A stretch of 64,000 bases of DNA from Berkelbacteria bacterium GW2011_GWE1_39_12 (GTDB taxonomy: Bacteria > Patescibacteriota > UBA1384 > UBA12157). Each line of letters opens with the position of its first letter. The stretch's first letter is position 1. A program made the translations under genes and the position numbers. The notes under the pieces were generated by a model. The model did not search any database and was not told where the DNA came from. It worked only from the letters and a program-made list of their open reading frames with translations. Positions 1-63,999 of this stretch are shown one piece after another. The stretch is taken from contig CP011213.1 in the NCBI GenBank assembly GCA_001029735.1, positions 76,087 to 140,086 on the forward strand, written 5' to 3'.

Positions 1-743
1 TTGATCGCCTCTGCAATCTCTTCCGGAGAAGCAGTATATTCTTCGATTTCTATTTCATTTTTTTGTCTTACAAAATCTAATATTTCTTGGACTTTAGAAT
101 CAAACGGGTTTGAAACGGCAACCTTAATTTTGGAATTTTCATGATTTTCAAAAACAACCATACTATATTTTTTAGAAATCTCAATTGGAAATTTAGTAAT
201 CGTTTCGTAGGAAATTTTTATGTTTTTTAAATCTATAGTTTTTAAGTGTTGTTTTGGCGTTTTTGGCTGATTATCGACATGGTTTACAACCGGCGGCGTA
301 ACCTGAGTATCATAAAGCGGCAGCACCGACTGAATATCTTCTGGCGTGGTAATATAGATATCAACAGTGATCCCCTTCTGATGTTTAAGGTCTGAGATAA
401 TTTGCGGCGGATTACTTTTCAGGTGTGCTGGTAATCCAAAAGCCATTTTTACTCGGCTGTCATCTTTTTCAAAAACAACGACTTTATATTTTTGAGCCAA
501 ATCCTTTGGAATTAATTTTAACGCGTCCGGCTTAATTAAATAATTTTCCAAACGCATGATTGGCAAATCGTATAAAACTGCATAGGCCTTAGCGATATCT
601 TCCGAACTAACCATTTTTTGCTTTCGTAGCTTTTCTTCAATTTTTTCGTTCGTAAAATCAGCCGGAATCTGAGAGGCCTCTGTATCAGTTATTCGGTTCG
701 AGCTTAATAAGATATCTAAAATTGTTTTGTTTTTTTGTTCCAT
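1..743 (-). CDS. Type IV pilus/T2SS assembly ATPase PilB-like, N-terminal part only. It starts at 743 and runs off the window. Two GspE_N-like domains.
   Basis: Reverse translation gives MEQKNKTILDILLSSNRITDTEASQ...VSSEDIAKAYAVLYDLPIMRLENYLIKPDALKLIPKDLAQKYKVVVFE..., which is typical of GspE/PilB N-terminal domains. The ORF is open to position 1. Confidence 0.7.
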   Translation of the reverse strand, partial: MEQKNKTILDILLSSNRITDTEASQIPADFTNEKIEEKLRKQKMVSSEDIAKAYAVLYDLPIMRLENYLIKPDALKLIPKDLAQKYKVVVFEKDDSRVKMAFGLPAHLKSNPPQIISDLKHQKGITVDIYITTPEDIQSVLPLYDTQVTPPVVNHVDNQPKTPKQHLKTIDLKNIKISYETITKFPIEISKKYSMVVFENHENSKIKVAVSNPFDSKVQEILDFVRQKNEIEIEEYTASPEEIAEAI

Positions 744-988
744 ATTTTTCAAAAAAGGTCTTGAAAAATTACGCGACAGGACGAAGCCCTGACTAATTTA
801 AGCGAATATTAAGCCAAAATCGCTCTCCCCTCCTTTGAGGAGAACATTTGTTACTACAATATTAATATATCATTATTTTAAATAAAATGCATGGTCTAAA
901 AAAACACGAATTTTATCGTGCTCTTCTAGTTGGCAGAATGCAACAACTAAATCAGAAACTTTATCTAGAAATCTTGAAAAAAATCTAT

Positions 989-9578: not shown

Positions 9579-10337
9579 TCATACTGTCACCTCAATTCTT
9601 TTACCATCTTTGGTTTCGAGCGTTAATCTTCCTTCTAAAACATTCTGGCTCAAAACTTTACCTTCGCCATCCTTTGATTTAAAGAAGCTTCCAACTTTTG
9701 GTAATTTCGCTTTTTCGTCTTTATAAAGATTTGCTTCATAAGAAAGACAACACATTAATTTACCACAGCAGCCGGCTAATTTAGGTGATTTTACCGAACC
9801 GGCGTCCTGAACCTCAGCCATATCTAGCGTAACATTATCTAAGTTATTTAAGAAACTAGCGCAGCAAAGCTGCCTGCCGCATTTACCAAATCCGCCAAAT
9901 AATTTCGTCTCTTCCCTTGGCCCAACTTGCTGCAAGCGAATTAACTTATTAAAGTCACCAACCATGTCGGCAACTAAGGCACGGAAATCTATGCGGCCAT
10001 CCGCTGAAAAATATAATGTTAACTTCTTTTGATCGAACGATAAATCTGCATCCAAAATCTTCATGTCTAAACCATGACGAAAAACTTTACTCCTCGCTTT
10101 CTCTAAAAATGACACTGCTTGAGTTTTTAACTGTTTTTTAGTGGCTTTATCTTGATCGGTAAATTCTCTTATTACATTGATCGTTTTTTGTTCTTGCACT
10201 AATTTGGAACAATCTATCTCGCACAAAACAATCGCCGGCTCCATAATGCCGTCGGCTTCGATTACTAACTCTTGACCAATTTTATAGTCCCCTGCCACAT
10301 TTCCAAGTTGGCCAGTTGTTGGAATTTTAATTCTCAT
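9579..10337 (-). CDS. PSP1 C-terminal domain protein (YaaT/RicT-like).
   Basis: GGFGKCGRQLCC and AGCCGKLMCC cysteine motifs typical of PSP1/YaaT. Classic neighbour of holB. Confidence 0.75.
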   Translation of the reverse strand: MRIKIPTTGQLGNVAGDYKIGQELVIEADGIMEPAIVLCEIDCSKLVQEQKTINVIREFTDQDKATKKQLKTQAVSFLEKARSKVFRHGLDMKILDADLSFDQKKLTLYFSADGRIDFRALVADMVGDFNKLIRLQQVGPREETKLFGGFGKCGRQLCCASFLNNLDNVTLDMAEVQDAGSVKSPKLAGCCGKLMCCLSYEANLYKDEKAKLPKVGSFFKSKDGEGKVLSQNVLEGRLTLETKDGKRIEVTV

Positions 10338-10389
10338 ATTTTCCCTAAAAATTCAGCACAAGCTTGCTTGACTACATGAATATTTTTTG

Positions 10390-11496: not shown

Positions 11497-11688
11497 TTAA
11501 GCGACTGAATACTTATTTATAGTACGAAGGCATTTTGTACAGATAATCATGCCTCTAGTTTTTTGAATATTAGGACGAATAAAACGTCTGGTTTTATGCT
11601 GCGAATGAGGCACATTGTTACCAGTCGTTACAGTTTTGCCACAAAGGTAGCAAACGCTATTTAATTTTTCATCTAAAATGGTTTTCAT
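11497..11688 (-). CDS. rpmB: 50S ribosomal protein L28.
   Basis: CYLCGKTVTTGNNVPHSQHKTRRFIRPNIQ matches the L28 signature. Confidence 0.85.
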   Translation of the reverse strand: MKTILDEKLNSVCYLCGKTVTTGNNVPHSQHKTRRFIRPNIQKTRGMIICTKCLRTINKYSVA

Positions 11689-11846
11689 AATTTCCTTCCG
11701 TGAAATTTCAGCGATAAACTTTGTTTACCTATAGTTTTTCTTCAGAAATAAAAATATTGCTATATACAATCTCGTAAGATATACTGATCGTAGTTCAGCT
11801 TTTCTTAACTTAATAAAGTATATCAAATAACTGAGAATAAATCAAT

Positions 11847-18079: not shown

Positions 18080-18397
18080 ATGAAAGATGAAAATATTAAA
18101 GTTTTCGATCTGGGAAAAAGAACAACTAATTTTGGAGTTGAAATTATTTTGTTTTGCAAACAAATTCAACAGAATTCTGTTTCTCGACCAATAATTAGTC
18201 AACTGGTCAGATCTGGGACAAGCATCGGTGCAAATTACTCCGAGGCAAATGAATTTGTAACTAAAAAAGATTTTCAATACAAAATAAGTATTGCTAAAAA
18301 AGAAGCAAAAGAAACACTTTATTGGCTTAAAATGGTTGATTGTTTTGAAGAGAACAAAATTAAAATATCGAATTTAGCGAAAGAAGTTCAGGAATAG
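18080..18397 (+). CDS. Four-helix-bundle protein (23S rRNA intervening-sequence protein family, TIGR02436-like).
   Basis: QLVRSGTSIGANYSEA...KEAKETLYWL motifs. 105 aa. Flanked by short inverted repeats (AAATTCCAA / TTGGAATTT). Confidence 0.7.
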   Translation: MKDENIKVFDLGKRTTNFGVEIILFCKQIQQNSVSRPIISQLVRSGTSIGANYSEANEFVTKKDFQYKISIAKKEAKETLYWLKMVDCFEENKIKISNLAKEVQE

Positions 18398-32355: not shown

Positions 32356-32458
32356 AGCGTTTCCTTTAAAACCAGCTTCTTATACTGGTGGCCGCGTCTT
32401 ATAATTACGGTAGTAATTTCCGCGGATCGATGGATAAAGAAAAATAAAATTTTTCTGT

Positions 32459-33857: not shown

Positions 33858-34604
33858 CTACTTTAATCCAATTACAGCTATCATCTTAGGCCCTTTTTCA
33901 CCTTCTTTGCGGAAACTGCCATAAATGCCGTTATCGCAAACCGTGCAAAAATCAGCGATCTCAATATTATCTTTAGAAACTCCGGCTTTTTTTAAATCAT
34001 CGAAAAGAGCTTTTTTTAGATCTACATAACCGTCTTTGTTACGGACAAAGGTTACTGAAGGGTAGCGATCTAAAAATATTTTTAAAACTTCATTTTTAAC
34101 CACAAAATGCTTTTGGCAAATACCAGGACCAACTCCCACAATCAGATTTTCGGGATCAGAGCCAAATTCTTTGAACTTTTCGATAGCCCTGGGAACTATT
34201 TGATCAATAATTCCCCGCCACCCTGCATGGATCGCCGCCACAACTCTGTTGGCGGGATCATATATTAAAATTGGCAAACAATCAGCAGTTGTGATGCCAA
34301 GATATATTCCTTTTTCCGCCGTGATTAACCCGTCTGCTTCAATTAACGATCCCGAAGTTTCAAGAGCCCCCTTACCACCCTCGGCTTTGCCTACCGCCGT
34401 TATTCTATTTCCATGCACTTGATGAGGAAAAATCACTTGGTTAAGCTCTATCCCAAGATCCTTGGCAAATTGCTTCCTGTTTTTAATCACCTCAGCGTCT
34501 TGAGCCGATCCAAATTTCATTTCTCCATAGGAACGATTAGATATTCCCTGAACGATTTCTGGAAAACAAGAAAAGCTCGAAAATTTGTAAAAACGTTCTT
34601 CCAT
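33858..34604 (-). CDS. pgeF: YfiH/PgeF family (DUF152, LACC1-like) peptidoglycan editing factor / purine nucleoside phosphorylase.
   Basis: HQVHGNRI, CLPI and HAGWRG motifs. 248 aa. Confidence 0.75.
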   Translation of the reverse strand: MEERFYKFSSFSCFPEIVQGISNRSYGEMKFGSAQDAEVIKNRKQFAKDLGIELNQVIFPHQVHGNRITAVGKAEGGKGALETSGSLIEADGLITAEKGIYLGITTADCLPILIYDPANRVVAAIHAGWRGIIDQIVPRAIEKFKEFGSDPENLIVGVGPGICQKHFVVKNEVLKIFLDRYPSVTFVRNKDGYVDLKKALFDDLKKAGVSKDNIEIADFCTVCDNGIYGSFRKEGEKGPKMIAVIGLK

Positions 34605-34626
34605 AATTTTGTAAAATTTCCGCGGT

Positions 34627-34710
34627 AAGCAAAAGCTTACCTATATTTTTATTTTTGTTCCTGTAAACTCTTACAGATTAGCAAGCTAACCTATTATTTT
34701 TATTTTTGCA
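34627..34710. repeat. Imperfect 25-bp direct repeat (AAGCT(t/a)ACCTAT(-/t)ATTTTTATTTTTG) x2 in the pgeF-mraY intergenic region.
   Basis: Copies at about 34631-34655 and 34683-34710. Confidence 0.5.
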
Positions 34711-34816
34711 AACTATTAATTCTTAGTAAGGGAGTCTTCTTTATATATTTATTGTATCAAAAAAATGGCTTTTCGGCCATCTAATGTTCCTAATCTCCTA
34801 CCTATAAGAGGAAATC

Positions 34817-35011
34817 ACCTCTTCCTGATTGCTTTAATGGCGAGGCTCATGAGAGGCCTTCGGTCTCTGCAATCAAGATGCCTGCTGCCCTAGATCCCCC
34901 GACCGATCAAGGCCAGCAACTTATCAGATTGCTTTACAGGCCTCGGCCTAGTGTCATCAGCTGTTCCTGATTGCTTTAATTGGCTACAGACCTCGGCCAA
35001 TTAAAGCAATC
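34817..35011. repeat. Cluster of TGATTGCTTTAAT(T)GG repeats, plus a perfect 15-bp inverted repeat spanning the mraY stop codon.
   Basis: CCTGATTGCTTTAATGG (34824), CAGATTGCTTTACAGG (34925), CCTGATTGCTTTAATTGG (34965), and the complement CCAATTAAAGCAATC at 34997-35011. The last two form a stem of GATTGCTTTAATTGG-N13-CCAATTAAAGCAATC. Confidence 0.6.
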
Positions 35012-36009
35012 ATCATTCCAATAACTGCCATGGCGGCGGAGATGATCCAAAAACGCATAGTAACTTTACTTTCGGGCCAACCGAGGGCTTCGAAATGATG
35101 ATGTATTGGCGATGACAAAAAGACTTTCCGCTTAAAAAATTTCTTCGAAAAAAGTTGAATGCCAACGCTCGCCGCTTCTAAAACAAAAACAAAGCCGATA
35201 ATCGGCAGAACGGCGACTTGATTAGTCAAAAATGCGATTATACCTAAAGTAGCACCGAGAGCCATAGATCCGGTATCACCCATGAAAAAGCGTGCTGGAT
35301 GAACATTAAACCACAAAAAAGCCAACAGAGCACCCATAATTGTGCCGCAGAACGCCGCCAGAGCGATCTTACCCTCCGCCAGGGCGATAAAACCATATGC
35401 TCCATAAGAAATAGCCAGTGTTCCTCCCGCTAAGCCATCTAGGCCATCTGTTTCGTTAACTGAAAAAGCCATAAACAATATAACAAAAATAAATAACGGA
35501 ATATACCATAAGCCCAAGAAAACGTCGCCTAAGCCTGGCACATGAAAAATATCCCAACCAAGCTTAAAGTAAAACCACCAAGCGCCAGCTACAGCAATGA
35601 TCAAATATAAAAAGAACTTGTATTTAAAAGCTAATCCGCCACGATTAGGCCCAATGCCTTTTATATTGGCTAGATCATCGATGGCACCAATAATACCGGA
35701 AGCGACAAGGGCAAATAGCGGTAGCCAAGTACCAGCTCTGGTTAAGTTAAAAAGTAAAGTAATAACTGCTGTAGTAACCCAAACAAGCAAACCACCCATT
35801 GTCGGCGTGTTTTCTTTGCCTTTGTGAAGTTTATAAAAAATCGGCGCTTTCTTTTCATCTAACGCCGTATCTCTAATTCTTTTTCCTAGTTTGTTTTTGT
35901 ATAAGAAATCCGTAAATAGAGGTGTCCAAATAAGGGCGATTACAAAAGAAATGGCTGTGAGCCAAAACACTTTTGCAATGTCCGGAATGTAGAGTTGAAT
36001 TTGTTCCAT
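34984..36009 (-). CDS. mraY: Phospho-N-acetylmuramoyl-pentapeptide transferase.
   Basis: 10-TM MraY architecture. DDLANI, GLDGLAGG and HHHFE motifs. Confidence 0.9.
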   Translation of the reverse strand: MEQIQLYIPDIAKVFWLTAISFVIALIWTPLFTDFLYKNKLGKRIRDTALDEKKAPIFYKLHKGKENTPTMGGLLVWVTTAVITLLFNLTRAGTWLPLFALVASGIIGAIDDLANIKGIGPNRGGLAFKYKFFLYLIIAVAGAWWFYFKLGWDIFHVPGLGDVFLGLWYIPLFIFVILFMAFSVNETDGLDGLAGGTLAISYGAYGFIALAEGKIALAAFCGTIMGALLAFLWFNVHPARFFMGDTGSMALGATLGIIAFLTNQVAVLPIIGFVFVLEAASVGIQLFSKKFFKRKVFLSSPIHHHFEALGWPESKVTMRFWIISAAMAVIGMMIALIGRGL

Positions 36010-36120
36010 AATTTGTAAAAATTTCCGTGAGCGAAGCTCAATAATTTTGTAAAAAATTTCCGCGACAAGTAGTCTTGTCCATTTCTTTTCTAGTATAGCA
36101 AAAAATATGAACGATTTGTA

Positions 36121-39100
36121 CTAGTTGACCAGAATTCCATCCAATATTCTTGGGCCTACTCCGCGTGCTCCGCTTCCGCCTCCGACTTCAATATAATGGT
36201 CACCGCTGGCTGAGCGAACGATGTCCACCGTAGCTTTTTCCACCATGCTAATGTTTGGTTTTTGCTCCATATCTGAAAGTTTTTCTGCCAGCACGTCCGC
36301 TGCCATACCAGCGCTCCCGATTGCAGAATCTGTGACAAAAATCGAAATTTTCGCCTCAGGAAATTTTTCTTTAATTTGTCTAACTTTTTTCATCAAACAA
36401 TTTATATGGCCAAACAATACGTCTGAGGATTTCAATCCGTACAAACCATCCATCATGAAAGTCATTTGTTTCGTGCCGTCGTCTAAGGTAATTGGAGCCA
36501 GCAAAACAATTTCATCGGCAATACTTCCTTCTTGTCTTTCACTCTGACTCATCAAGTAAAATTTACCAGAATCACCAAAAGTGAGATTAGTATCGTTATT
36601 GCACTCTTTAGACATACAGCCCAGACACTGACGCATATTTTCAACAATTAAATTCATATTGTTAGTTGCCCGACTGATAATTTCAATCGAATTTTGTTTA
36701 CTACTGATCAGATGATCAATTTCATCTAATCGCTGTGATAATATTTCGTTGTGGCTCGAGCCAATACTTTGACGAATCTGACCTAACTGGTTTTGGATTT
36801 GCGAAAGCGATTGATCCATAGTAGCCATTTGATCGCGTATTGAATTGAGATAATTTTGTAAAACCATATGATCTGATTGATCAAGCTTATCATCGCTTTT
36901 AACAATAATATTTTCTAAATAGCTCAAATCTTGAGATAAGGCCAATGCACCGGAATGGACAGTAAATTCTTCTCCGAGCTTCCTAAATATCGAAACAACT
37001 TCTTCAGATGGCTGCAATCTTCTTTGGAGCTCGGCGATTGATTCGTTAATACCCATTCGTTCGATATTCTTAATACTACGAACTATCAGATTTATAGATC
37101 TGGTTTGATCCTGAATTTGCTTCACTTGCTCTGGAGTCCAATCGGTTATGCTGAAAATATTCTTTAATTCCTGTTGCACTTGTCTTTCTTCAGAACTGAA
37201 TTCCGGATTCTTACCGGTTAATTCTTGAAAAGTCTTTGCTAAAGTAGACCCAACCATTTTATCGTAAGTTTGATAGAGCCTTAAAGTTTGTTTATCCTTT
37301 TCTTCTGGATAGGCATCTTCATCCTTCAGGTCCTCAATAGCTCGAGTAATATTTCCCAATTTAACGTCAATCGTTTCGACATTTCCAATCATTTGACTAA
37401 TCGTTTCATCTTGTAAAATTTCTTGAAACTCAGACAATCTCTCTTCGCCAATGCCTAAGTTTTCAGCGGTAATAGGATTGCTCGATTTGCGATCTGATAA
37501 ATAATTTTGAATTTCTGTTAAGTTATCACCCTCAAAATACTCCGACGGATCAATTTCTCCATTTTCTCTAAAAGTCTTCCATTGGTCGTTAATCATGAGT
37601 CCCAAAAAGAAACTGAGTAATCTCTCTTTGCCTGTGTCTCGATCATTAAGATTACCCATATAACGAATAATATCTTGCATGGAACGAATTTTCTCACGAT
37701 CCATCTGGTCGGGAATTTTCAACAAGCCGAATCTTTGTTTGAAATTCGATTTCATATTTTCAATAATTTCATTCTTTTGTGCTTGAAAGACTTCGGTACT
37801 AGGTAACCCTTGAGATCTTGAGGCTAAAATATTTTCCAACGTATGACGGATTTGAACCAATTCTCTGGCATTGTATTCTATTTGACCAAATGAGTTTTCT
37901 TTTTGAATTACGACTAACTGAGCTTGATAAAAAGGAAGAAGCTCTGAATTAAATTCCTTCATTTCTTTCGGTGAAAGTTGAGCAATAACTTCCCCGAAAT
38001 TACTATAAAGTGCAGGTGAAGCTTGAACAATATCGGCTGAAATGTTGTAAAAAGCTGCCTTTTCATCCTCAAGCCACTTTTCTTTAACAAACCGCTCTTC
38101 CTGATTTTGCAAAAGTTGTAATATCTCCGACCGACTTCGGTCAGCCGTAGATTCCTTCCTCCAAGTATTTTTTAATTGATAGATCAGGTTGCTCATCGCC
38201 TCTACATATTTAAGCGGCCCAGCACCACCATTTGATTTGATTAATTCAGAGAGAAGATTTGCCGAAAACGGTACCCGGCCTTCGGAAAGTTCCGACAAAG
38301 TTGTTGCGTATAATTTTTGAAATTTTTCCAAAATAAACGCTTTATTTTCTTCATGACTGAACATTTCAGTGACTCTTTCAAGGGTTGCTGGATCAAATTT
38401 TTCTGTCTCCTCAATTTGTAAATATGCACCCAGATATTCTCGCCAGGATTGTTCGTTCAGCGGTTGATCATATAACTGTATTTTTGATTGCCAATGTTTG
38501 CCAGCCAAAAAAACTTCCATCAAAACAGACAACTTGGCTCCATCGTCTTCCAATCGAAATCCTTGGTCAAGAAATTTATAGACTAAATATCGTTGAACAC
38601 CGTCCAGTAAATCGTTGGCATCAATACTCCCGACAATTTGACAAACTTGTTGTCCGCTGTAAATAACGCTTTCATCGGCAATCGAGGCTAAACTTCGATT
38701 GTGCGACCATGTTCCATTTGATGACTTTTTTGAATAAATATTGGTAATTCTTTCAGCCTTATCTTCCAGGTTAATATCCAAATAGCCGGCAATTTGGAGG
38801 GCATAATGCCCGATTTCTGGATCATCTGAAGAAAGCATCAATGGCAGAATCTCATTTTGTAGTTGTGATAAACCTTCCGGACTAAGATCGCCCTTAGCAA
38901 ATTCTGAAGCGTAATTTTCAAAAATTTCAGCGGCCTGGCGAGACACATTGCCACCCTTTTGTAACCATTGAATAACTTCATCAACTGATTTTTTGTAAAG
39001 ATCATTTTTTCCAGAAGAATATTCTCTAATAATTTGAGGCGTTTTTAGTTGATCATTCATGAATTTACTGATTCTTTTGCGCTCAGTCTCACTATTGGTC

Positions 39101-41589
39101 GGATCATTTGCCAATTCAGTAAGTAAGTCGCGGCAATTTATATCATCAAATTCCACAAATCTTTTAAAAAGTAACCGAACAATGACAGGATTTGAAGATT
39201 TAACTTCGGAAAGTCTCGTTCGAAATTCCTTAGATTGTAAATATTCGCGACACACTCGACTATCGCTGCCCAAAGCATTAAAGCCCATTAACAAATGATT
39301 CAACTGTTTTGGATTCAATTCATCGTTATAGTTTATGGCTTCTTCCAGCATTTTCTGTAAAGAATCATCAAATTTTAACCGTTCTTCACCGGAAAGATCT
39401 TCTATTACTGCGGTTCGAAGGTCTGTTGACGCATGTGCGATTTTATCTAAGATGAGTTCGTGATTTTCGCGATCGTCTATAAGATAGCCTGTAAGCATGT
39501 CCATTGCCTTCGTTTCACATTTTCCTATTCTTGCTGTAAGCATATCAGCGATCTCTGGGTCAAAATCCATTGTTCTGATAACTTCATAAGCTTCATCTGG
39601 CACATTTTCCATTCGTCCAATCACCGACATGTAAAATGGTAGCTCTTGTGCATTTACACTTTTAAGCATGTGGACCAATATTTGATCAAGTTTTTCCTGA
39701 ACTAAAGCGGCTCCATCGCCAGTTTCATTTTCAGAGTTAGCGCTTGTCCAGTTTCTAAAATCATTTGGTCGAGTTTTAATTATCTTAAATAACTCCATTA
39801 AACCTGGGATATTTTCTTCCGATAGCTTTTCTAAATCACTATCAGAAAATGATAAAACATAACGAACGAGATCATTATTTTCCCCGCTGTCACCCTTACT
39901 ACTTCGGCCTAAAAAGGGATGAATCCCTTGGTAGTTAAAATTGTAAGCATTTAAAATGGTGTAAGGCACGATTTTGGGCTCGTGAAAAGCAAAAAGATTT
40001 CTACCTGGTTTTAGTCGACTATCTTCATTTTGATCTTGTAGGTCAAGGAACCGTTTCAAAGATCTCTCCGCTAAAAATTTTTCTACACTATCTAGCTGAT
40101 CCTGTCCAAAGTGCTCAATAATCATTGGCTCATTTGCAAATATCGCCCATTTTTCAGTGTCGATTTCACCTTCCAAGTTATTAATAAACTTCCCAGTCTC
40201 TTCAGAGCCAATAAAACTTCTCAGTTTTTTAATCCGATCTTGCATCTCCTTGTAGTGATCGTATCCCAAGACTTCAAAAGCCACTTCTTCGGCTTGCTCT
40301 AAGTCTATTTCATATGTCTCAAAAACCTCTGAAAATTCCAAGAGACGATCGAAATTCGCAACCAACATAGAAAATTTTTTGAATTCTTCATCTGCCGCCT
40401 TTTCTGGTCTCCCTACAGTATGTATTTTATCCGCGATATCATAACACTGGTCTACGTGATGTGCCCTAAGTCTGCGTTCTAATTCGCTAACTTTATTTTT
40501 CATCTCTTCGGCTCGGCTGGCCATTGCAGTACTTTCTTCTCTTGGCATATCTTTGGAATAATAATAAGAAGGCCTAAAGTCTGTTGCATAAGCTTGAGAT
40601 AAGATAGCAACAACCTCATTTTTCAGCTCTTCATCCACTTCGTCGGAGTCTGCAACAAGCCTTTCGGCGAAAGCAACGTCTAATTGATCCATCTCCTCTT
40701 TGGATAGTTGGACATCTACGGGCGCATCTGTTTCGATTTCAATCAATTTTTCTTCAATTTCTGAAACCAATTTTTCATAAACAGATCTGGATAATCGACT
40801 AAAATTGTCTCCAATAAGGCGCCGCTCCGAATCCATATTTGGCACATATGCGAATGGCTGACGAGCGGTATTTAGGTCGGAAATTTGCTGTGAATCATTC
40901 ATTAGAGACTGGATTTTATCTCTTAAAACAGGAATTTCTCGTTTTTTTCCAATGACTGGCTTAAGTAAATCGCCAATCAAAAAAAATAAATTTCCGGTCT
41001 TAACATTGAGCTCGTGTCGCGTATCAAAAATTTCATTGCTTTTTCTACTTTCAGCCACATGAAGATCTTCTATACTTTCATAGCCACTTTCGGCAAGTTG
41101 AACTTTCCGGAATTTTGTTGTTAGATCGCCTACTGCTTGACGAATTGATTCGAGTTTTACATAAGAGTCATTGTATCTTTCTTGTAGCAATTTTATGGAA
41201 AGCAAAATTTTATTTAACTGTTCTAAATTAAGATCGGAACTATTTAGATATTCATTAACCTGGCTGCCTACTTCTTCGGACATTTGGGCCATTACAGCTT
41301 TCTTTTTCCCTGAATCCTCTTCTAACCTCTTAAGTTCTTGTTCGATTAAGTCAGTTGAGGTAAAACCATCCAATGGTATTTCTTCCATATCAGTACTACT
41401 TAGCCAACTCAAAAGGCGATTTTGTCCATATCTAACTTCAGTCAAAAATTTGATTGCGTCTCGAAGCTTCTGCTTTTCAATCTGTTCTTCATTTGAATCT
41501 AAATTTTCCCGAACTTCAACTTCGTTTACAATTTCAGGATTATTAGGCAACAAAGCTTCTTGGTCTTCTTTTACTTCTTCGATCCCCAT
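36121..41589 (-). CDS. Giant (1822 aa) acidic, predicted cytoplasmic, largely alpha-helical hypothetical protein embedded in the dcw cluster.
   Basis: Uninterrupted 5.47-kb ORF at low GC. No TM segment, no P-loop, no catalytic motif recognised. A Cys cluster (CLGCMSKEC) and a Gly-rich tail near the C-terminus. Confidence 0.7.
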   Translation of the reverse strand: MGIEEVKEDQEALLPNNPEIVNEVEVRENLDSNEEQIEKQKLRDAIKFLTEVRYGQNRLLSWLSSTDMEEIPLDGFTSTDLIEQELKRLEEDSGKKKAVMAQMSEEVGSQVNEYLNSSDLNLEQLNKILLSIKLLQERYNDSYVKLESIRQAVGDLTTKFRKVQLAESGYESIEDLHVAESRKSNEIFDTRHELNVKTGNLFFLIGDLLKPVIGKKREIPVLRDKIQSLMNDSQQISDLNTARQPFAYVPNMDSERRLIGDNFSRLSRSVYEKLVSEIEEKLIEIETDAPVDVQLSKEEMDQLDVAFAERLVADSDEVDEELKNEVVAILSQAYATDFRPSYYYSKDMPREESTAMASRAEEMKNKVSELERRLRAHHVDQCYDIADKIHTVGRPEKAADEEFKKFSMLVANFDRLLEFSEVFETYEIDLEQAEEVAFEVLGYDHYKEMQDRIKKLRSFIGSEETGKFINNLEGEIDTEKWAIFANEPMIIEHFGQDQLDSVEKFLAERSLKRFLDLQDQNEDSRLKPGRNLFAFHEPKIVPYTILNAYNFNYQGIHPFLGRSSKGDSGENNDLVRYVLSFSDSDLEKLSEENIPGLMELFKIIKTRPNDFRNWTSANSENETGDGAALVQEKLDQILVHMLKSVNAQELPFYMSVIGRMENVPDEAYEVIRTMDFDPEIADMLTARIGKCETKAMDMLTGYLIDDRENHELILDKIAHASTDLRTAVIEDLSGEERLKFDDSLQKMLEEAINYNDELNPKQLNHLLMGFNALGSDSRVCREYLQSKEFRTRLSEVKSSNPVIVRLLFKRFVEFDDINCRDLLTELANDPTNSETERKRISKFMNDQLKTPQIIREYSSGKNDLYKKSVDEVIQWLQKGGNVSRQAAEIFENYASEFAKGDLSPEGLSQLQNEILPLMLSSDDPEIGHYALQIAGYLDINLEDKAERITNIYSKKSSNGTWSHNRSLASIADESVIYSGQQVCQIVGSIDANDLLDGVQRYLVYKFLDQGFRLEDDGAKLSVLMEVFLAGKHWQSKIQLYDQPLNEQSWREYLGAYLQIEETEKFDPATLERVTEMFSHEENKAFILEKFQKLYATTLSELSEGRVPFSANLLSELIKSNGGAGPLKYVEAMSNLIYQLKNTWRKESTADRSRSEILQLLQNQEERFVKEKWLEDEKAAFYNISADIVQASPALYSNFGEVIAQLSPKEMKEFNSELLPFYQAQLVVIQKENSFGQIEYNARELVQIRHTLENILASRSQGLPSTEVFQAQKNEIIENMKSNFKQRFGLLKIPDQMDREKIRSMQDIIRYMGNLNDRDTGKERLLSFFLGLMINDQWKTFRENGEIDPSEYFEGDNLTEIQNYLSDRKSSNPITAENLGIGEERLSEFQEILQDETISQMIGNVETIDVKLGNITRAIEDLKDEDAYPEEKDKQTLRLYQTYDKMVGSTLAKTFQELTGKNPEFSSEERQVQQELKNIFSITDWTPEQVKQIQDQTRSINLIVRSIKNIERMGINESIAELQRRLQPSEEVVSIFRKLGEEFTVHSGALALSQDLSYLENIIVKSDDKLDQSDHMVLQNYLNSIRDQMATMDQSLSQIQNQLGQIRQSIGSSHNEILSQRLDEIDHLISSKQNSIEIISRATNNMNLIVENMRQCLGCMSKECNNDTNLTFGDSGKFYLMSQSERQEGSIADEIVLLAPITLDDGTKQMTFMMDGLYGLKSSDVLFGHINCLMKKVRQIKEKFPEAKISIFVTDSAIGSAGMAADVLAEKLSDMEQKPNISMVEKATVDIVRSASGDHYIEVGGGSGARGVGPRILDGILVN

Positions 41590-45233: not shown

Positions 45234-45270
45234 TTACCCTCCTAAAGATAAATAGATTATATTTTCGCCA

Positions 45271-45390
45271 GAAAATTCCGCGGCAAGCTTCAAGCTTGAC
45301 TATATTTTACAGAAATTCCTTGTCGAGCTTCAACTTGACTATATTTCGTCGGAAAATTCCGTGTCGAGCTTTGGCTTGACTATATTTTTA
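45271..45390. repeat. Three tandem copies of a ~40-bp unit (GAAAATTCCGCGGCAAGCTTCAAGCTTGACTATATTTT) between rsmH and ftsL, carrying promoter-like hexamers.
   Basis: Units at 45271-45309, 45310-45349 and 45350-45390, about 80% identical. Unit 3 overlaps the rsmH stop codon. Confidence 0.7.
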
Positions 45391-46306
45391 TGGCCGCTCG
45401 AACTTTTGCTGAGCGAGCCGACGGATTGATCTGAATTTCTTCTTCAGTAGCGATAATTGGCTTAGGGGTTAAAACCTCTAAATCCGGTCGTTCGCGTAAG
45501 AAATTTTTTACAATCCTATCTTCCAATGAATGAAAGGTAATAACTACCAATCTTCCACCAGGAGATAATATTGAAACCGCTTGCGGCAAAACGCTTTTTA
45601 AATTTTCCAATTCTTTATTGACGGCCATCCGCAACGCACGGAAAGTGCCAGTAGCAAAATGAGTTTTTTGCTTAAATCGATAAGATGGCGGCGTTGATTG
45701 GCGAATAATTTCGACTAACTGATCTGTTGTTTCAATTGATTCTTTGTTTCGAACGTCTACAATTTTTCTGGCAATTTGCTTTGCGAATCTTTCTTCGCCA
45801 TCGAATAATATTTGAACTATTTCTCTTTCAGGAAATTTGTTTAAAATATCAGAGGCTGTAGTTTGAATTTTAGCATCGAGTCTCATATCTAAAGGTGCAC
45901 TACCTCTGAAACTTAAACCCAGTTCTTCAGATTTCAACTGATCGGTGTTCGGCCCAAGATCAATCAGTATACCCGAGACTTCATTCTTTTCCGGCCATTT
46001 TCTAATAATTAAGCCAATTTCGTTAAAGTTATCTTGGACTATTTCAAATCGATTGCCAAAAGAAGCCAAATTTTCATTTGCTTCGGCAATTGCCCGAAAG
46101 TCCTGTTCCACAGCTAGTAATTTGCCGTTAGGCGCTGTTTTTTTAAGGATCTCGCTCGCGTGTCCACCGTGACCTAATGTTAAATCGATAAAGTGTTCAT
46201 TTGATTGAGGGGCAAGGGTTTTAATAACTTCTTCTTTTAAGACTGGAATGTGTTTCATATTTGTCAGAAATTCCGCGAAAAGTACTCTTTTGTTGCGTAC
46301 TTTCAT
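45380..46306 (-). CDS. rsmH: 16S rRNA (cytosine1402-N4)-methyltransferase.
   Basis: MKHIPVLKEEV start (the likely true start is at 46258; the ORF track extends it to 46306). GHGGHA SAM motif. Confidence 0.85.
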   Translation of the reverse strand: MKVRNKRVLFAEFLTNMKHIPVLKEEVIKTLAPQSNEHFIDLTLGHGGHASEILKKTAPNGKLLAVEQDFRAIAEANENLASFGNRFEIVQDNFNEIGLIIRKWPEKNEVSGILIDLGPNTDQLKSEELGLSFRGSAPLDMRLDAKIQTTASDILNKFPEREIVQILFDGEERFAKQIARKIVDVRNKESIETTDQLVEIIRQSTPPSYRFKQKTHFATGTFRALRMAVNKELENLKSVLPQAVSILSPGGRLVVITFHSLEDRIVKNFLRERPDLEVLTPKPIIATEEEIQINPSARSAKVRAAIKI

Positions 46307-46451
46307 TAGTTATTTGGGACTAGCAGCCAGTGCCCCTCCTTAGATAAATCCCAATTTTGTTTTGCCCCGCCCGGCACATATTGTGACGAGTAGGACGAAT
46401 ATATGATGCAGCCGTAATTTTTGTTTTTACTGGCTGCTAGTCAAACAAGTT

Positions 46452-46898
46452 TCAAATGCCTAGCTCAGACATATGTTTGGCAATCTGATCGGTCGACTTT
46501 TCTGTTTTGGCTTTGTATTCTCTCCAGGTCGATTGATCCCAAATTTCCAAACGGTTAAAAAGTCCTGCAACTACGGCATATTTTTTCAAACCGGCATAAG
46601 CCTTTAAATAACCAGGAAGTAAGATTCTGCCTTGACTATCAAATTCTACTTCCATGGCCCCGGCCAGCATCAGACGAGAAAACGCTCGCGAGTTGGCATC
46701 GGATAAAGGTAAATTAGAAAGTTTCTCGGCGAGTGTCGTCCATTCTTTTTTTGGAAAGAGCCAGAGACAATTATCAATACCGCGAGTTACGACAGCGCCA
46801 CTACCAATATCACGCCGCATTTTAGATGGGACGGCCATTCTCCCCTTTTCATCAATTGCGTGTTCGTACTCTCCAATAAACATTGTTAATTTCCCCAC
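46452..46898 (-). CDS. mraZ: Transcriptional regulator MraZ.
   Basis: Duplicated SpoVT/AbrB-like halves, DEKGRMAVP and D.QGRILLP. Confidence 0.85.
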   Translation of the reverse strand: MGKLTMFIGEYEHAIDEKGRMAVPSKMRRDIGSGAVVTRGIDNCLWLFPKKEWTTLAEKLSNLPLSDANSRAFSRLMLAGAMEVEFDSQGRILLPGYLKAYAGLKKYAVVAGLFNRLEIWDQSTWREYKAKTEKSTDQIAKHMSELGI

Positions 46899-48261: not shown

Positions 48262-48744
48262 TTACAACAGGACTGGTTGAGCTGATTGCTGTTTGTCTTG
48301 GTTTTGAATGTATTTTCTGATTGCTATTTCACTGATGCCGATAGTGGAAACAAAGTATCCACGACTCCAAAAGGTTCCTAAGGGAATCTTTTTGTTTTTC
48401 TTTTTGATCCAAGCGGATGATTTACCTTTCAGAATGCTCATGGCGTAGCTAACAGAGTATTTAGGAGGAATAGAAATATAGATATGAATATGGTCATCGG
48501 CAATATGGATTTCGTAAATCACAAGTCCTTTCCATTTGGCGATCATCTTGAAGATACGTTCAAATTCTTGTTTAATATAGGTAGAACACATGACTCTACC
48601 GCGATACTTTGGTGACCAGACCAAGTGGTATCGACAACAGTATAACGCATGATTTAGTTGGTACAATCGAGAATTAGACAATAAAATCACCTCCTTCCTT
48701 CGTCGGGGTGATTTTATTGTAACGCGATGCTTTAAAACGCACAC
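48262..48744 (-). CDS. tnpA: IS200/IS605-family transposase TnpA (HUH, Y1).
   Basis: YHLVWSPKYR, HUH motif DDHIHIYISIPPKYSVS, catalytic Tyr region WSRGYFVSTIG. Confidence 0.8.
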   Translation of the reverse strand: MCVLKHRVTIKSPRRRKEVILLSNSRLYQLNHALYCCRYHLVWSPKYRGRVMCSTYIKQEFERIFKMIAKWKGLVIYEIHIADDHIHIYISIPPKYSVSYAMSILKGKSSAWIKKKNKKIPLGTFWSRGYFVSTIGISEIAIRKYIQNQDKQQSAQPVLL

Positions 48745-56975: not shown

Positions 56976-57031
56976 TTTATGCTAAATAATTTCCATAATT
57001 TACTTTAGTAAATTTCCGCGAGATTATCTTT

Positions 57032-57970
57032 TTAGATAATCTCCATTATGGCTTTTGATAATTTATGCTTATCGTGATACAACGGATTTTTTTCGTTAAT
57101 AATATCTTTTTTAATAATTTTGAAACGACCAATTTTATTTTGATCGGTTGTAATGTTCGAAACCTTTCCTAACTCGCCCGTATCATGAGTCGAATGCACA
57201 ATATGATCGTTCACTAAGACTACATTAAACAACTTGGGATGACTATGTTTTATTAAACGATCGATGTGATCTGCCACTGTATAGCGTTCAGTTTCGCCCC
57301 GTTCGGTAGCAATGTTGCAAATGTATATTTTTTTAGCTCGAGATTTTACAACCGCATCGGTAATTTCTTTTAATAAAAAATTTGGAATAATTGAAGTCCA
57401 AAGACTCCCGGGCCCAATAATAATTGCGTCAGCATTTTTAATCGCCCACAAAACTTCCGGGTTGGCTTTAACATTACTTGGCTTTAAAGCCACTTTTTTA
57501 ATCGGGCTTTTATGTCCTTCTTTCACCAATAAACATTCGCCGGTAAATTCACGGCCATCTTCCAACTTTCCTTTAAGATCAACTTTATTAAAAGTCGAAG
57601 GTAATACTTCGCCCTTGATAGCTAAAATATGACTAGCCTGGTTTACCGCCTCGCGAAAAGATCCGGTAATATTTTCAAGTGCAATCAATAATAAATTCCC
57701 TAAGGCGTGATCATTAATGCCGCGGCCCTTATCAAAACGATAATTAAACATTTGTGTCATTAAAGATTCATCGTTTGCCAAAGCGGTTAAACACTTTCGA
57801 ACATCACCTGGTGGAATCGTATCAAAATCTTTTCTTAGCTTTCCTGACGATCTACCATCGTCGGTCATCGTTACAACGGCCGAAATAGAATCCGTGTATT
57901 CCTTAAGACCCGAAAGTAAATTCGAAAGTCCTGTCCCCCCGCCAATTACGACAATATGTTTTTGTTTCAT
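57032..57970 (-). CDS. YvcK/CofD-like (UPF0052) gluconeogenesis-factor family protein.
   Basis: HIVVIGGGTGLSNLLSGLK N-terminal motif. GPGSLWTSIIPN. Confidence 0.8.
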   Translation of the reverse strand: MKQKHIVVIGGGTGLSNLLSGLKEYTDSISAVVTMTDDGRSSGKLRKDFDTIPPGDVRKCLTALANDESLMTQMFNYRFDKGRGINDHALGNLLLIALENITGSFREAVNQASHILAIKGEVLPSTFNKVDLKGKLEDGREFTGECLLVKEGHKSPIKKVALKPSNVKANPEVLWAIKNADAIIIGPGSLWTSIIPNFLLKEITDAVVKSRAKKIYICNIATERGETERYTVADHIDRLIKHSHPKLFNVVLVNDHIVHSTHDTGELGKVSNITTDQNKIGRFKIIKKDIINEKNPLYHDKHKLSKAIMEII

Positions 57971-63348: not shown

Positions 63349-63501
63349 TTTTTCTAGATTACCAAACGATGATTAATTGGTCAATTATCGATACAAAAAA
63401 AACGGGATTTCTGATCTATAAAGATGAGATTTCCCGTTTTTTTGTATTCGATTCTAAAAACTATAATTTTTCCGAAGAAAAATTTCCGCGCACCTTTAGT
63501 G

Positions 63502-63999
63502 CTACTTCAACTGCTTGCGAACATGCTCAAGCCAATCTCTGGCTACACCCTGACCACCAAGACCAAAAGCTAATCCACCAGCGATCGCGATTAACGCGAC
63601 AACGCCGATAAATAAGGTTTGAATCATGGTTTCGGCAATGCCGAGTTGTGCTAAAGCGGCCAAAACTGCAAAAACTATAATTGCATATCGAACACCAATA
63701 GCAACTGTATCATCAGCACCTAATCCGGAAGCCGAAAGGCTGCCCTTAACAACTGATGAAAGAAAATTGGCTAAAATTAAACCGATAAGCAAAATTGCGC
63801 CGGCAGCGATAACTGAAGGAATATATGCCAAAATCTTGTCTAAGAATCCCGCTACTTCAGTTAACTGCAAAACATTAGCGGCAGCGATGAAAGCGACCAA
63901 AAAAACGATCCACTTAACAGCTGAGGCCAATAATGAAGTTGCATCTTGTTCGGCGTTTGCTTTTTTCAAAACGTCTTCAACTTTTGCTTTTTCGAACAA
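63502..63999 (-). CDS. Polytopic membrane protein, probably N-terminally truncated by the window edge.
   Basis: ORF open to the last base of the window (apparent TTG at the edge). 4-5 TM helices rich in Ala/Gly/Leu. Confidence 0.5.
   Translation of the reverse strand: MFEKAKVEDVLKKANAEQDATSLLASAVKWIVFLVAFIAAANVLQLTEVAGFLDKILAYIPSVIAAGAILLIGLILANFLSSVVKGSLSASGLGADDTVAIGVRYAIIVFAVLAALAQLGIAETMIQTLFIGVVALIAIAGGLAFGLGGQGVARDWLEHVRKQLK

What the first reader, a model, noticed from the sequence alone, without database searches (positions are those of the whole stretch)
34602..36068. Recurrent CGCGGAA(A)TTTT(T)ACAAA(A)TT motif abutting the start codons of dcw genes that lack a Shine-Dalgarno
Immediately 5' of the ATGs, in sense orientation:
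- pgeF: taCCGCGGAAATTTTACAAAATT-ATG
- mraY: tCACGGAAATTTTTACAAATT-ATG, with a second copy 30 nt further up, gtCGCGGAAATTTTTTACAAAATT
- rsmH (at 46262-46285): tttCGCGGAATTTCTGACAAAT-ATG
- ftsL: the same CCGCGGAATTTTC core, embedded in the 3x tandem repeat upstream.

None of these genes has a GGAGG-like SD. The motif reaches to position -1.

A related TTTTTACAAATTTT word also occurs inside the first codons of pgeF.

This looks like a cluster-specific cis element. It could be a binding site for a regulator or RNA-binding protein, or an internal promoter or translation-initiation enhancer. It coordinates expression of the division/cell-wall genes.
Basis: seen in the sequence. Interest (0 to 1): 0.6.

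Follow-up and report, generated by a model that had tools for sequence, protein, structure and literature searches.

The report
Two-hairpin mini repeat at gene boundaries
The motif is real, but it is one copy of a roughly 45-base, two-hairpin repeat that has spread through the genome of an uncultured Berkelbacteria bacterium and its closest relatives, wedging itself exactly between gene boundaries and bringing its own TAG stop and ATG start; it is not a dedicated switch for cell-division genes.

Summary
The motif exists at the stated coordinates and is far from chance: CGCGGAAWTT occurs 8 times against 0.5 expected. The full unit, read on the minus (gene) strand, is [T]AT[A/G]G – hairpin H1 (variable sequence, G…C closed, strong covariation) – GCGGA – AU-rich hairpin H2 – (T)AT[G/A].

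The window holds about 12 intact and 2 degenerate units at 10 loci. Half of those loci lie outside the dcw cluster (rpmB, PSP1-domain gene, mshE, flavin reductase, cmk). ftsL does have a Shine-Dalgarno.

Units come and go between close relatives as clean 38–44 nt indels bounded by TATG/TATR. They form head-to-tail arrays. None was found in 80 other Patescibacteria species.

In about 20 of 36 loci the unit's own ATG is the start codon. In 7 its TAG is the upstream stop codon. Some units sit between convergent genes.

Best reading (confidence about 0.6): a lineage-restricted, REP/PATE-like non-autonomous mobile element. It survives only where it rebuilds gene boundaries, and it is then transcribed as a leader or intercistronic spacer. 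A selected role in translation or mRNA processing is not excluded. No cognate transposase was identified.

The parts
34601..34645 (-). Intact unit abutting the pgeF start: TATAG-GTAAGCttttGCTTAC-CGCGGAA-ATTTTacaAAAAT-TATGG. The final ATG is the pgeF start codon.
   Evidence: CM R1 60.7 bits, E=5.8e-13. ATG opens the 248-aa Cu-oxidase_4 ORF. H1 fold -11.1 kcal/mol, z=-3.0.
34649..34695 (-). Degenerate unit directly upstream of the pgeF unit. The H1-like hairpin GGTTAGCttgcTAATC is kept; the core has decayed.
   Evidence: CM 8.6 bits only. Sequence and fold. Interpreted as a decayed member of an array.
34751..34759 (-). Extended -10 (TGATACAAT) just downstream of an intrinsic terminator (34763-34782). 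Same promoter type as in relatives, where it lies 6-7 nt from the unit's tag or from the ATG of an empty site.
   Evidence: Sequence. Terminator. Comparison with L085, L088, L089 and L090. Spacing statistics.
36006..36044 (-). Second (proximal) unit at mraY: TTATT-GAGCttcGCTC-ACGGAA-ATTTTtacAAAT-TATGG. The final ATG is the mraY start codon.
   Evidence: 15.6 bits, short H1; ATG opens the 341-aa MraY ORF.
36039..36083 (-). First (distal) unit at mraY: AATGG-ACAAGactaCTTGT-CGCGGAA-ATTTTTTACAAAAT-TATTG.
   Evidence: CM 49.5 bits. Fold.
36092..36100 (-). Extended -10 (TGCTATACT) 9 nt upstream of the tag A of the distal mraY unit. Candidate promoter that would make the two units the mraY leader.
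   Evidence: Sequence. Spacing. Inference only; there are no transcript data.
45257..45387 (-). Head-to-tail array of three units upstream of ftsL. Intact units at 45339-45384 and 45257-45304; the middle one is degenerate. The TAG of the first unit is the rsmH stop codon. ftsL itself follows 23 nt later behind its own SD.
   Evidence: TRF period 41, 3.2 copies. CM 47.5 and 47.4 bits. Stop-codon coincidence. SD.
46255..46294 (-). Unit abutting the rsmH start (core CGCGGAA, H1 AAAAGagtaCTTTT). The final ATG is the rsmH start codon. An upstream in-frame ATG at 46306 is the left direct repeat.
   Evidence: 17 bits; the Methyltransf_5 match starts at residue 2 of the 292-aa product; clean indel against L085.
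32399..32432 (-). Partial unit upstream of ftsW. Core and H2 are intact (CGCGGAA-ATTACtaccGTAAT-TATAA); H1 is degenerate. It lies 43 nt from the ftsW ATG.
   Evidence: (15.1 bits).
56993..57047 (-). Unit between cofD and a flavin-reductase gene, with a long H1 (GAGATTATC/GATAATCTC). The cofD stop lies inside H1. The unit's ATG opens only a 4-codon ORF; the real start is 17 nt further on.
   Evidence: CM 32.5 bits. Fold z=-5.2..
63461..63506 (-). Unit whose 5' TAG is the stop codon of the upstream mechanosensitive-channel gene. The cmk start lies 112 nt downstream.
   Evidence: CM 27.3 bits..
11685..11733 (-). Divergent unit (core CGCTGAA) whose ATG is the start codon of ribosomal protein L28 (rpmB).
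   Evidence: CM 38.3 bits. (PF00830).
10334..10376 (-). Divergent unit (core GCTGAA) whose ATG is the start codon of the PSP1-domain gene.
   Evidence: CM 26.3 bits..
740..797 (-). Divergent unit (core CGCGTAA, long H2) whose ATG is the start codon of the MshE-type pilus ATPase, the first gene of a type IV pilus cluster.
   Evidence: CM 19.2 bits.. Fold z=-3.5.

Best explanation
The motif is one member of a lineage-restricted family of about 40-55 nt non-autonomous repeat units in a narrow clade of Candidatus Berkelbacteria (CPR/Patescibacteria).

**Anatomy (shown).** Each unit reads 5'-(T)AT[A/G]G, then hairpin H1, then GCGGA, then AU-rich hairpin H2, then (T)AT[G/A]-3'. H1 has 4-10 bp, almost any sequence, and is always closed by G-C.

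**Behaviour (shown).**
- Units are gained and lost as discrete blocks bounded by a TATR direct repeat.
- They pile up head to tail.
- They occupy the entire space between functional boundaries in three settings: between a -10 box and the ATG of what is a leaderless-type gene in relatives; inside what is an ATGA stop/start overlap in relatives; or between two convergent stop codons.
- The unit's own 5' TAG and 3' ATG (or TAA on the other strand) then serve as the codons.

**Mechanism (inferred).**
- The units spread by transposition, most plausibly through a single-stranded, hairpin-recognising HUH/Y1 (REP-RAYT or IS200/IS605-like) route into TAT^R sites.
- Selection keeps only insertions that rebuild the stop and start codons.
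- Selection also keeps only sense-oriented insertions, because the reverse complement of H1 followed by T-rich sequence resembles an intrinsic terminator.
- Once fixed, the unit is transcribed as the 5' leader or intercistronic spacer: a stable 5' hairpin, a conserved linker, and a weakly structured A/U-rich tract ending in AUG.
- That layout is compatible with SD-independent initiation, so essential genes tolerate it.
For: **Non-randomness and anatomy**
- Core counts against shuffles.
- Unit table.
- H1 covariation: 94.9% of cells paired; 64 double-sided change cells against 17±3.4 in shuffles, 0 of 500 shuffles reaching the observed value; slid controls collapse.
- H2 inner pairs vary in a compensatory way: TTC/GAA, GTA/TAC, CC/GG, GC/GC.

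**Discrete indels**
- A 44-nt indel at rsmH between L085 and L089, in otherwise near-identical flanks, is bounded by TATG...TATG.
- A 38-nt insertion in L091 sits at the ftsW/murG ATGA overlap.
- Occupancy across 8 junctions in 8 genomes is patchy.

**Arrays.** 2-3 units at window ftsL and mraY, L086 murE and ftsW, L089 murE, L091 pgeF, and L105.

**Narrow distribution**
- Present in relatives with MraY at least 83% identical to the window's.
- Absent from L087 (82%) and L088 (79%).
- 0 hits at E<=0.1 in 1.24 Mb from 80 other Patescibacteria species.
- At least 13 further loci in low-GC metagenome contigs.

**Boundaries**
- 20 of 45 units supply the start codon, 7 supply the stop TAG, and 6 more upstream ORFs stop inside H1.
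- Units ending in TTATAA lie between convergent genes.
- A -10-like hexamer, 5 of them extended TGn, lies 6-7 nt upstream of the tag A in 9 of 35 first units. This is the same geometry as the empty leaderless-type pgeF sites of L085 and L088.

**Same H1 type at non-orthologous sites in different genomes.** GGTAAGC..GCTTACC occurs at window pgeF and at L091 murG.

**Almost no G:T wobble.** 3 G:T against 4 A:C among about 520 pairs. This fits DNA-level or young copies better than an old RNA stem.

**Antisense H1 scores as terminator-like.** 3 of the 6 terminator-like sites in the scanned region are antisense H1 hairpins; 1.6 sites were expected in total.

**Precedent.** GTAG-tagged REPs are known to donate TAG stop codons to flanking ORFs (PMC3733652).
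Against: - No cognate transposase was identified. The IS200-type Y1 gene in the window (48262-48744) has unrelated GC-rich flanking hairpins. The RAYT-like genes of L089 and L090 are flanked by their own, different palindromes.
- No polymorphism was seen among near-identical strains, so no direct sign of current activity.
- H1 sequences are far more diverse than in typical REP families.
- At sites filled in several genomes (pgeF, rsmH, mraY), the core, tag and pairing are kept while flanking non-coding sequence is scrambled. This argues for selection acting in place, unless sites are repeatedly re-invaded.
- Orientation follows the local gene even where two units 3 kb apart face opposite ways (L096).
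- 44 of 45 units are in sense orientation, which is also what a functional RNA element would show.
- The density is uneven: 0 units in 19 kb of the same genome next to the window.
Confidence: 0.6

Rival explanations
1. Selected host RNA module. The unit is a functional 5'-leader or intercistronic element. H1 acts as a protective hairpin: the 3' end of the upstream message, or the 5' end of the transcript. GCGGA is the binding or cleavage site of an RNA-binding protein, RNase or the ribosome. The A/U-rich H2 delivers the AUG for Shine-Dalgarno-independent initiation or re-initiation. Its spread by duplication is secondary.
For: - The unit's ATG is the start codon of essential genes that then lack any SD: mraY, murE, murG, ftsW, rpmB, rsmH.
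- GCGGA, the tag and the TAT are essentially invariant, and H1 pairing is kept by compensatory changes at sites filled in several genomes whose flanks are scrambled.
- 44 of 45 units are in sense orientation, and orientation tracks the local gene in L096.
- A -10 box 6-7 nt upstream would make the unit the exact 5' end of the mRNA.
- In the ATG-abutting window copies, H2 is too weak to fold in the minimum-energy structure. That leaves an open A/U-rich tract before the AUG.
Against: - Occupancy of junctions is not conserved between close relatives, and copy number varies from 1 to 3.
- Units also occur between convergent genes, with no downstream start, and 17-112 nt away from the real start.
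- One copy is antisense to both neighbours (L090 4231-4289).
- There are virtually no G:U pairs.
- No Rfam family matches.
- No complementarity to the anti-SD beyond GGA. This rests on general knowledge, because the 16S rRNA gene is not in the window.
Confidence: 0.25
2. The motif is a dcw-specific promoter or regulator-binding site that coordinates division and cell-wall gene expression.
For: Units are over-represented at dcw junctions in this genome: 5 of 15 against 5 of 70, p = 0.013. They are frequent in the dcw clusters of L085, L086, L089 and L091.
Against: - Half of the window's loci are at unrelated genes.
- The dcw junctions that carry a unit differ in every relative.
- No -35/-10 pair is predicted on the sense strand: 3 promoter-like sites, all on the other strand, against 3.9 expected.
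- The distance from GCGGAA to TAT varies from 12 to 24 nt, and the half-sites of H2 are variably spaced. Both are incompatible with a fixed promoter or a dimeric DNA-binding site.
- Where the unit abuts the ATG, its TATGG includes the start codon, so it cannot be the -10 for that gene.
- The enrichment can be explained by local hopping and array formation.
Confidence: 0.05
3. Insulator against antisense transcription. The unit is kept because its reverse complement (H1 followed by a T-rich run) terminates transcripts entering genes from the opposite strand.
For: 3 of the 6 terminator-like sites found in 34550-36200 are antisense H1 hairpins followed by T-rich tails; 1.6 sites were expected in total. 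Units occur between convergent genes.
Against: - The T-run depends on flanking sequence, not on the unit itself.
- The idea does not explain the conserved GCGGA, H2, or the exact abutment to start codons.
- Most units lie in long co-directional gene strings, where little antisense transcription is expected.
Confidence: 0.05

Closest known systems
GTAG-tagged repetitive extragenic palindromes (REP/REPIN) mobilised by RAYT Y1 transposases
   Same: - A short stem-loop (5-13 bp stem) carries a 5' xTAG tag directly at its foot.
- It is dispersed in intergenic DNA and forms clusters.
- Sub-families show complementary stem changes.
- The tag often supplies the TAG stop codon of the flanking ORF (PMC3733652).
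- RAYT-like genes are common in Berkelbacteria.
   Different: - The tag is mostly ATAG or ATGG, and its G pairs.
- A second AU-rich hairpin and an invariant GCGGA linker belong to the unit.
- Units are head-to-tail and almost always in sense orientation, whereas REPs are mainly head-to-head or tail-to-tail and lie downstream of genes.
- Stem sequences are far more diverse.
- The RAYT-like genes seen in relatives are flanked by unrelated palindromes.
IS200/IS605-derived palindrome-associated transposable elements (PATEs)
   Same: - There are no terminal inverted repeats.
- One hairpin sits near each end.
- Insertion is oriented next to a short specific sequence.
- Excision can be precise, which would give clean empty sites.
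- An IS200-type tnpA is present in the window.
   Different: - The unit is much smaller (about 45 nt).
- Its ends do not match the hairpins flanking the resident tnpA.
- TATR occurs at both ends, so a target duplication cannot be excluded.
- No guide-sequence spacing like that of IS608 is visible.
Pneumococcal BOX elements and Neisseria Correia elements (small mosaic repeats / MITEs co-transcribed with genes)
   Same: - They are modular, with variable numbers of about 45-nt subunits in tandem.
- They sit just upstream of genes, fold into stable RNA structures, and alter expression.
- Presence and absence vary between strains.
- This comparison rests on general knowledge and the Delihas reviews, seen only as listed abstracts (PMC2229807, PMC3184786).
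   Different: Those elements have terminal inverted repeats (Correia) or distinct A/B/C modules. They do not systematically supply stop and start codons or fill the whole inter-boundary space.
Leaderless-gene promoters (extended -10 placed 6-7 nt before the ATG)
   Same: Empty pgeF sites in L085 and L088 show this layout. Filled sites keep the same -10-to-+1 spacing, but to the unit's tag.
   Different: The unit is not the promoter. It converts the predicted leaderless transcript into one with a 40-50 nt leader.

Membership tests
REP / GTAG-tagged palindromic repeats | Short stem-loop, stem 5-13 bp, loop 2-20 nt | tested here: met
   H1 has a 4-10 bp stem and a 3-6 nt loop in 40 of 43 units. 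Covariation is shown.
REP / GTAG-tagged palindromic repeats | Terminal GTAG (or GYAG, GTRG, GTGG) tag that is not base-paired | tested here: inconclusive
   The tag is NATAG (most units), NGTAG (5 units) or NATGG. Its last G always pairs with the C before GCGGA.
REP / GTAG-tagged palindromic repeats | Both orientations; head-to-head or tail-to-tail dimers predominate and head-to-tail dimers are rare; mostly downstream of genes | tested here: not met
   All arrays are head-to-tail. 44 of 45 units are co-oriented with the adjacent gene. Most lie at 5' ends.
REP / GTAG-tagged palindromic repeats | A cognate RAYT gene flanked by the same repeat | tested here: not met
   The RAYT-like genes in L089 and L090 are flanked by ATACAACCCCAGGGGTTGTAT and AATCGCACATCCGATGTGCGATT. 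tblastn found no RAYT homologue in the window. The rest of the genome was not searchable.
IS200/IS605-derived PATE | Subterminal hairpins at both ends and no terminal inverted repeats | tested here: met
   H1 sits at the left end and H2 at the right end. The unit ends are not inverted repeats of each other.
IS200/IS605-derived PATE | Ends identical to those of a full-length IS with tnpA in the same genome | tested here: not met
   tnpA at 48262-48744 (PF01797, 111.8 bits) is flanked by the hairpins GCCAGCtttaGCTGGC, GCCCGCgatcaGCGGGC and CCACCGGCattcGCCGGTGG. Neither GCGGAA nor an AU hairpin is present.
IS200/IS605-derived PATE | Insertion 3' of a fixed 4-5 nt target without target-site duplication | tested here: inconclusive
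   TATG/TATR is found at both unit boundaries. This fits a target plus a matching right end. It equally fits a 2-4 bp duplication.
DDE-type MITE (e.g. Correia) | Terminal inverted repeats | tested here: not met
   The 5' end (e.g. GGTAAGC...) and the 3' end (...ACAAAAT) are not complementary.
Sigma-70 promoter | -35 and -10 hexamers 16-18 nt apart on the gene strand | tested here: not met
   The consensus scan of 34550-36200 gives no site on the minus strand. The GCGGAA-to-TAT distance is 12-24 nt.
Described RNA families (Rfam 15) | Match to a curated covariance model | tested here: not met
   The gathering scan of the whole window finds only rRNA and tRNA. E-value scans of 34500-36200 and 46230-46480 give only chance-level hits.
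Shine-Dalgarno-type ribosome binding site | At least 4-5 nt complementarity to the 16S 3' tail, 5-10 nt before the start codon | not testable with these tools
   The 16S rRNA gene is not in the window. Against the canonical CCUCC tail, only GGA of GCGGA could pair, and it lies 12-24 nt upstream.

The most novel reading that the evidence does not exclude
The unit is not merely tolerated. It may be a portable expression module of these tiny CPR genomes. It would convert a leaderless or translationally coupled gene into one with a standard 45-nt leader: a 5' protective hairpin, an invariant GCGGA contact for a protein or the ribosome, and an open A/U tract ending in AUG. That would make it a previously undescribed Shine-Dalgarno-independent initiation or re-initiation signal. 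A related possibility is that its transposition machinery specifically targets the melted +1 ATG of leaderless promoters.
Probability: 0.15. Interest if true: 0.8.

Novelty: new variant of a known kind. Interest (0 to 1): 0.45.

Why it matters
**Annotation.** Gene callers mis-set starts at these sites. For example, rsmH is called as 308 aa from the upstream repeat ATG instead of 292 aa. Comparative regulon searches would wrongly read the repeat as a regulatory motif.

**Biology.** This shows a CPR bacterium with an under-1-Mb genome, overlapping genes and leaderless-type promoters carrying an expanding repeat family. The family persists by rebuilding the stop and start codons it splits. It therefore places a 45-nt SD-less leader in front of essential genes such as mraY, murE, murG, ftsW and rpmB.

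**A testable question.** How do these ribosomes start on such leaders? The unit's small size and invariant GCGGA make it a convenient probe, either for an unknown HUH-type mobilisation system or for an RNA-binding factor in Patescibacteria.

Tried and rejected
- **Known RNA family:** rejected after Rfam gathering and E-value scans.
- **Sigma-70 promoter with TATRR as the -10:** rejected. Spacing is variable, the TATGG contains the start codon, and the consensus scan is empty on the gene strand.
- **Leaderless promoter inside the unit:** rejected. There is no -10-like hexamer at -12 to -7 of the ATG in the abutting copies (by inspection).
- **Dimeric transcription-factor site on the AATTT/AAATT inverted repeat:** rejected because the half-site spacing varies by up to about 12 nt.
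- **Small ribozymes (hammerhead), rRNA-type boxA/boxB antitermination sites, and integron attC:** their consensus sequences, recalled from memory, are absent. This was by inspection only, not a formal test.
- **Link to the RAYT-like genes of L089 and L090, or to the IS200-type tnpA in the window:** not supported, because the flanking palindromes differ.
- **Phage origin:** the viral-contig scan gave only pattern-level hits of 28 bits or less.
- **Pseudogene origin of the GC-rich spacer between mraY and pgeF:** tblastn with the ORFs that relatives carry there was negative.
- **Strain-level insertion polymorphism:** the available strains are 99.9-100% identical, so they are uninformative.
- **Out-of-window prediction of about 1 unit per 5 kb:** failed. 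There were 0 units in 19 kb, so the density is uneven.


Full report
**Source and gene context.** The window is part of contig DODL01000005.1 of GCA_003509005.1. This is a Candidatus Berkelbacteria (CPR/Patescibacteria) metagenome-assembled genome with about 38% GC, and nearly all its genes lie on the minus strand.
- pgeF: 33858-34604
- mraY: 34984-36009
- rsmH: 45380-46258
- murD, ftsW, murE and mraZ

- On the minus strand the quoted strings are present and end at position -1 of the ATG of pgeF, mraY and rsmH.
- The core CGCGGAAWTT occurs 8 times against 0.51 expected, with no shuffle reaching 8.
- The 18-mer with up to 3 mismatches occurs 5 times against 0.34 expected.
- The ftsL-proximal copies form a 41-nt, 3.2-copy tandem array.

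Three details are wrong.
- ftsL has a strong SD (AGGAGGG).
- The word inside pgeF is the coding sequence for ERFYKFS, which relatives encode with different bases.
- The TTTTTACAAA part is not the conserved part.

**Anatomy.** Lining up all copies shows a larger unit. It has five segments:
1. a tag (T)AT[A/G]G;
2. hairpin H1, with 4-10 bp of almost any sequence, whose first G (the tag's last base) pairs with the C preceding GCGG;
3. the linker GCGGA;
4. an AU-rich hairpin H2, with conserved outer pairs A(A)TTT/AAA(T)T and variable but complementary inner pairs and loop;
5. a tail (T)AT[G/A]N.

A covariance model was built from 14 units. It finds further units in the window at 11685-11733, 10334-10376 and 740-797, plus a degenerate one at 34649-34695. 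All lie on the gene strand.

On 37 units from nine genomes or contigs:
- 94.9% of H1/H2 cells pair.
- There are 64 double-sided changes against 17±3.4 in column shuffles (0 of 500 reach the observed value).
- Pairing collapses when the partners are slid.
- Caveat: this alignment was fitted to the model.

Folding the window units as RNA gives z-scores down to -5.2. In the ATG-abutting copies only H1 forms in the minimum-energy structure; H2 is marginal there.

**Distribution across genes.** In the window, 5 of 10 loci are outside the dcw cluster. These are rpmB (L28), a PSP1-domain gene, an MshE-type ATPase, a flavin reductase and cmk. The dcw cluster is still enriched, 5 of 15 junctions against 5 of 70, p = 0.013 (approximate junction counts). 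Another 19 kb of the same genome outside the window holds no unit.

**Distribution across genomes.**
- Units are present in relatives whose MraY is 83-89% identical to the window's: L085, L086, L089, L090 and L091.
- They are absent from L087 (82%) and L088 (79%).
- They are absent at E<=0.1 from 1.24 Mb of dcw loci from 80 other Patescibacteria species.
- A metagenome pattern scan added at least 13 loci with full units in low-GC contigs. In those loci the pattern bases are fixed by construction.
- Viral contigs gave only pattern-level matches.

**Empty against filled sites.** This is the key result.
- *rsmH.* L085 reads ...CATTTACAC|TATGAAACAC. L089, with near-identical flanks, carries an extra 44 nt bounded by TATG...TATG.
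- *pgeF.* In L085 and L088 an extended -10 (TGgTACAAT, TGaTACAAT) lies 6-7 nt before the ATGG, which is the layout of a leaderless gene. In L089, L090 and L091 the same -10 lies 6-7 nt before the unit's tag, and the unit ends in the ATGG. The window's pgeF site is also filled, but its extended -10 (34751-34759) lies about 100 nt upstream of the intact unit, beyond the degenerate unit(s).
- *ftsW and murG in L091.* The unit sits in what is an ATGA stop/start overlap in relatives. Its TAG is now the upstream stop and its ATG the downstream start.
- *Occupancy.* Each genome has its own set of occupied junctions and its own copy numbers (1-3).

**Boundary statistics**.
- Of 45 units (about 36 loci), 20 provide the start codon of an ORF of at least 60 aa.
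- 7 provide the TAG stop of the upstream ORF, and 6 further upstream ORFs end inside H1.
- Units ending in TTATAA lie between convergent genes; in L122 and L108 the TTA is the stop codon of the gene on the other strand.
- In 9 of 35 first units a -10-like hexamer (5 with TGn) lies 6-7 nt upstream of the tag A. That spacing is the only peak in its distribution.
- One unit is antisense to both neighbours (L090 4231-4289). It overlaps the 3' end of hisS.

**Interpretation.**
- Discrete indels, direct-repeat boundaries and head-to-tail arrays all point one way. So do patchy occupancy, the narrow phyletic range and the same H1 type at non-orthologous sites in different genomes. Together they indicate a dispersed, duplicative (mobile) element, not a conserved regulatory signal.
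- The architecture is one hairpin at each end, no terminal inverted repeats, an xTAG tag at the foot of H1, and oriented insertion at a short specific sequence. It is closest to REP/RAYT and IS200/IS605-type (HUH/Y1, single-strand) elements.
- GTAG REPs are already known to donate TAG stop codons (PMC3733652).
- The near-absence of G:T pairs (3, against 4 A:C, in about 520 pairs) fits DNA-level pairing or young copies.
- The sense bias can be explained by selection. In reverse, H1 followed by T-rich sequence looks like an intrinsic terminator.
- The exact abutment to start and stop codons then follows from survivorship. In a genome with almost no spacers, only insertions that rebuild the split codons persist.

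**What remains open.**
- No cognate transposase was found. The window's IS200-type tnpA and the RAYT-like genes of relatives carry unrelated flanking hairpins.
- The tag, GCGGA and H1 pairing are conserved at sites shared by several genomes whose flanks are scrambled. Essential genes now depend on the unit's ATG without any SD. So a selected RNA role (leader stability, processing at the linker, SD-independent initiation) stays a serious rival, at about 0.25.

**Verdict.** The motif is real and positionally biased, but it was misread. It is a new variant of the small hairpin repeat elements known from other bacteria. It is notable for its two-hairpin sense-oriented design, for carrying a stop and a start codon, and for occurring in a CPR genome.

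Noticed in passing
window 34763-34983 (-): A GC-rich non-coding stretch of about 220 nt lies between the mraY stop and the pgeF promoter. It has internal repeats (TTAAAGCAATCAGGAA twice, plus GTAAAGCAATCTGATAAG) and folds strongly (-74 kcal/mol for 236 nt). It ends in an intrinsic terminator (34763-34782) followed by TGATACAAT. There is no Rfam hit and no similarity to the ORFs that relatives carry at this position. It may be an unknown small RNA or a structured 3' UTR.
   Followed up: partly
window ~46330-46420 (-); also L085, L087, L088, L089, L090 upstream of rsmH: A conserved non-coding block, GCCGGGCGGGGCAAAACAAAATTGG...TAAGGAGGGGCACTGGCTGCTAGTCC, lies between mraZ and rsmH. The 26-nt core is invariant in the four aligned loci (window, L085, L089, L090) and recurs with at most one change in L087 and L088, although the surrounding spacer varies. 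There is no Rfam match. It could be a MraZ operator, a small RNA or a leader element.
   Followed up: partly
window 36121-41589 (-): An 1822-aa ORF with no Pfam domain is inserted between murE and mraY. In relatives (L085-L090) murE lies next to mraY. In the window the two mraY units lie directly downstream of this insertion.
   Followed up: partly
window 48262-48744 (-): An IS200-type Y1 transposase gene (PF01797, E=2.9e-32) lies 1.4 kb upstream of mraZ. It is flanked by GC-rich hairpins (GCCAGCtttaGCTGGC upstream; GCCCGCgatcaGCGGGC and CCACCGGCattcGCCGGTGG downstream), followed by a TTGACA-17-TATTAT promoter for the next ORF.
   Followed up: yes
L089 3288-3959 (-); L090 42-710 (+): RAYT-like 222-223 aa Y1 proteins (with a PEDWxFSSY motif) lie next to the dcw cluster of relatives. 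Each is flanked on both sides by its own perfect palindrome (ATACAACCCCAGGGGTTGTAT in L089; AATCGCACATCCGATGTGCGATT in L090). More than 2,000 homologues were found, many from Berkelbacteria, and some occur twice on one 929-kb contig.
   Followed up: partly
window 59008-62326 (-) and 62656-63348: The 23S and 5S rRNA genes are present without an adjacent 16S gene. The upstream neighbour is cmk, so the rRNA genes are unlinked. A 23S-rRNA-intervening-sequence-type protein (PF05635) is encoded at 18080-18397 (+).
   Followed up: no
window 45380-46306 (-): Public gene calls give RsmH as 308 aa, starting at the ATG that is the left direct repeat of the inserted unit. The Pfam match and the relatives support the 292-aa form starting at 46258. 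Units of this family can mislead start-codon prediction.
   Followed up: yes
L089 4777-4819, L098 606-654, L096 6670-6716: Where the left tag is still ATGG, the short reading frame it opens runs through the unit. In 3 of 6 cases it ends in a TGA that overlaps the real start (ATGA), which is a possible leaderless mini-ORF coupled to the gene. The sample is too small to exclude chance.
   Followed up: no
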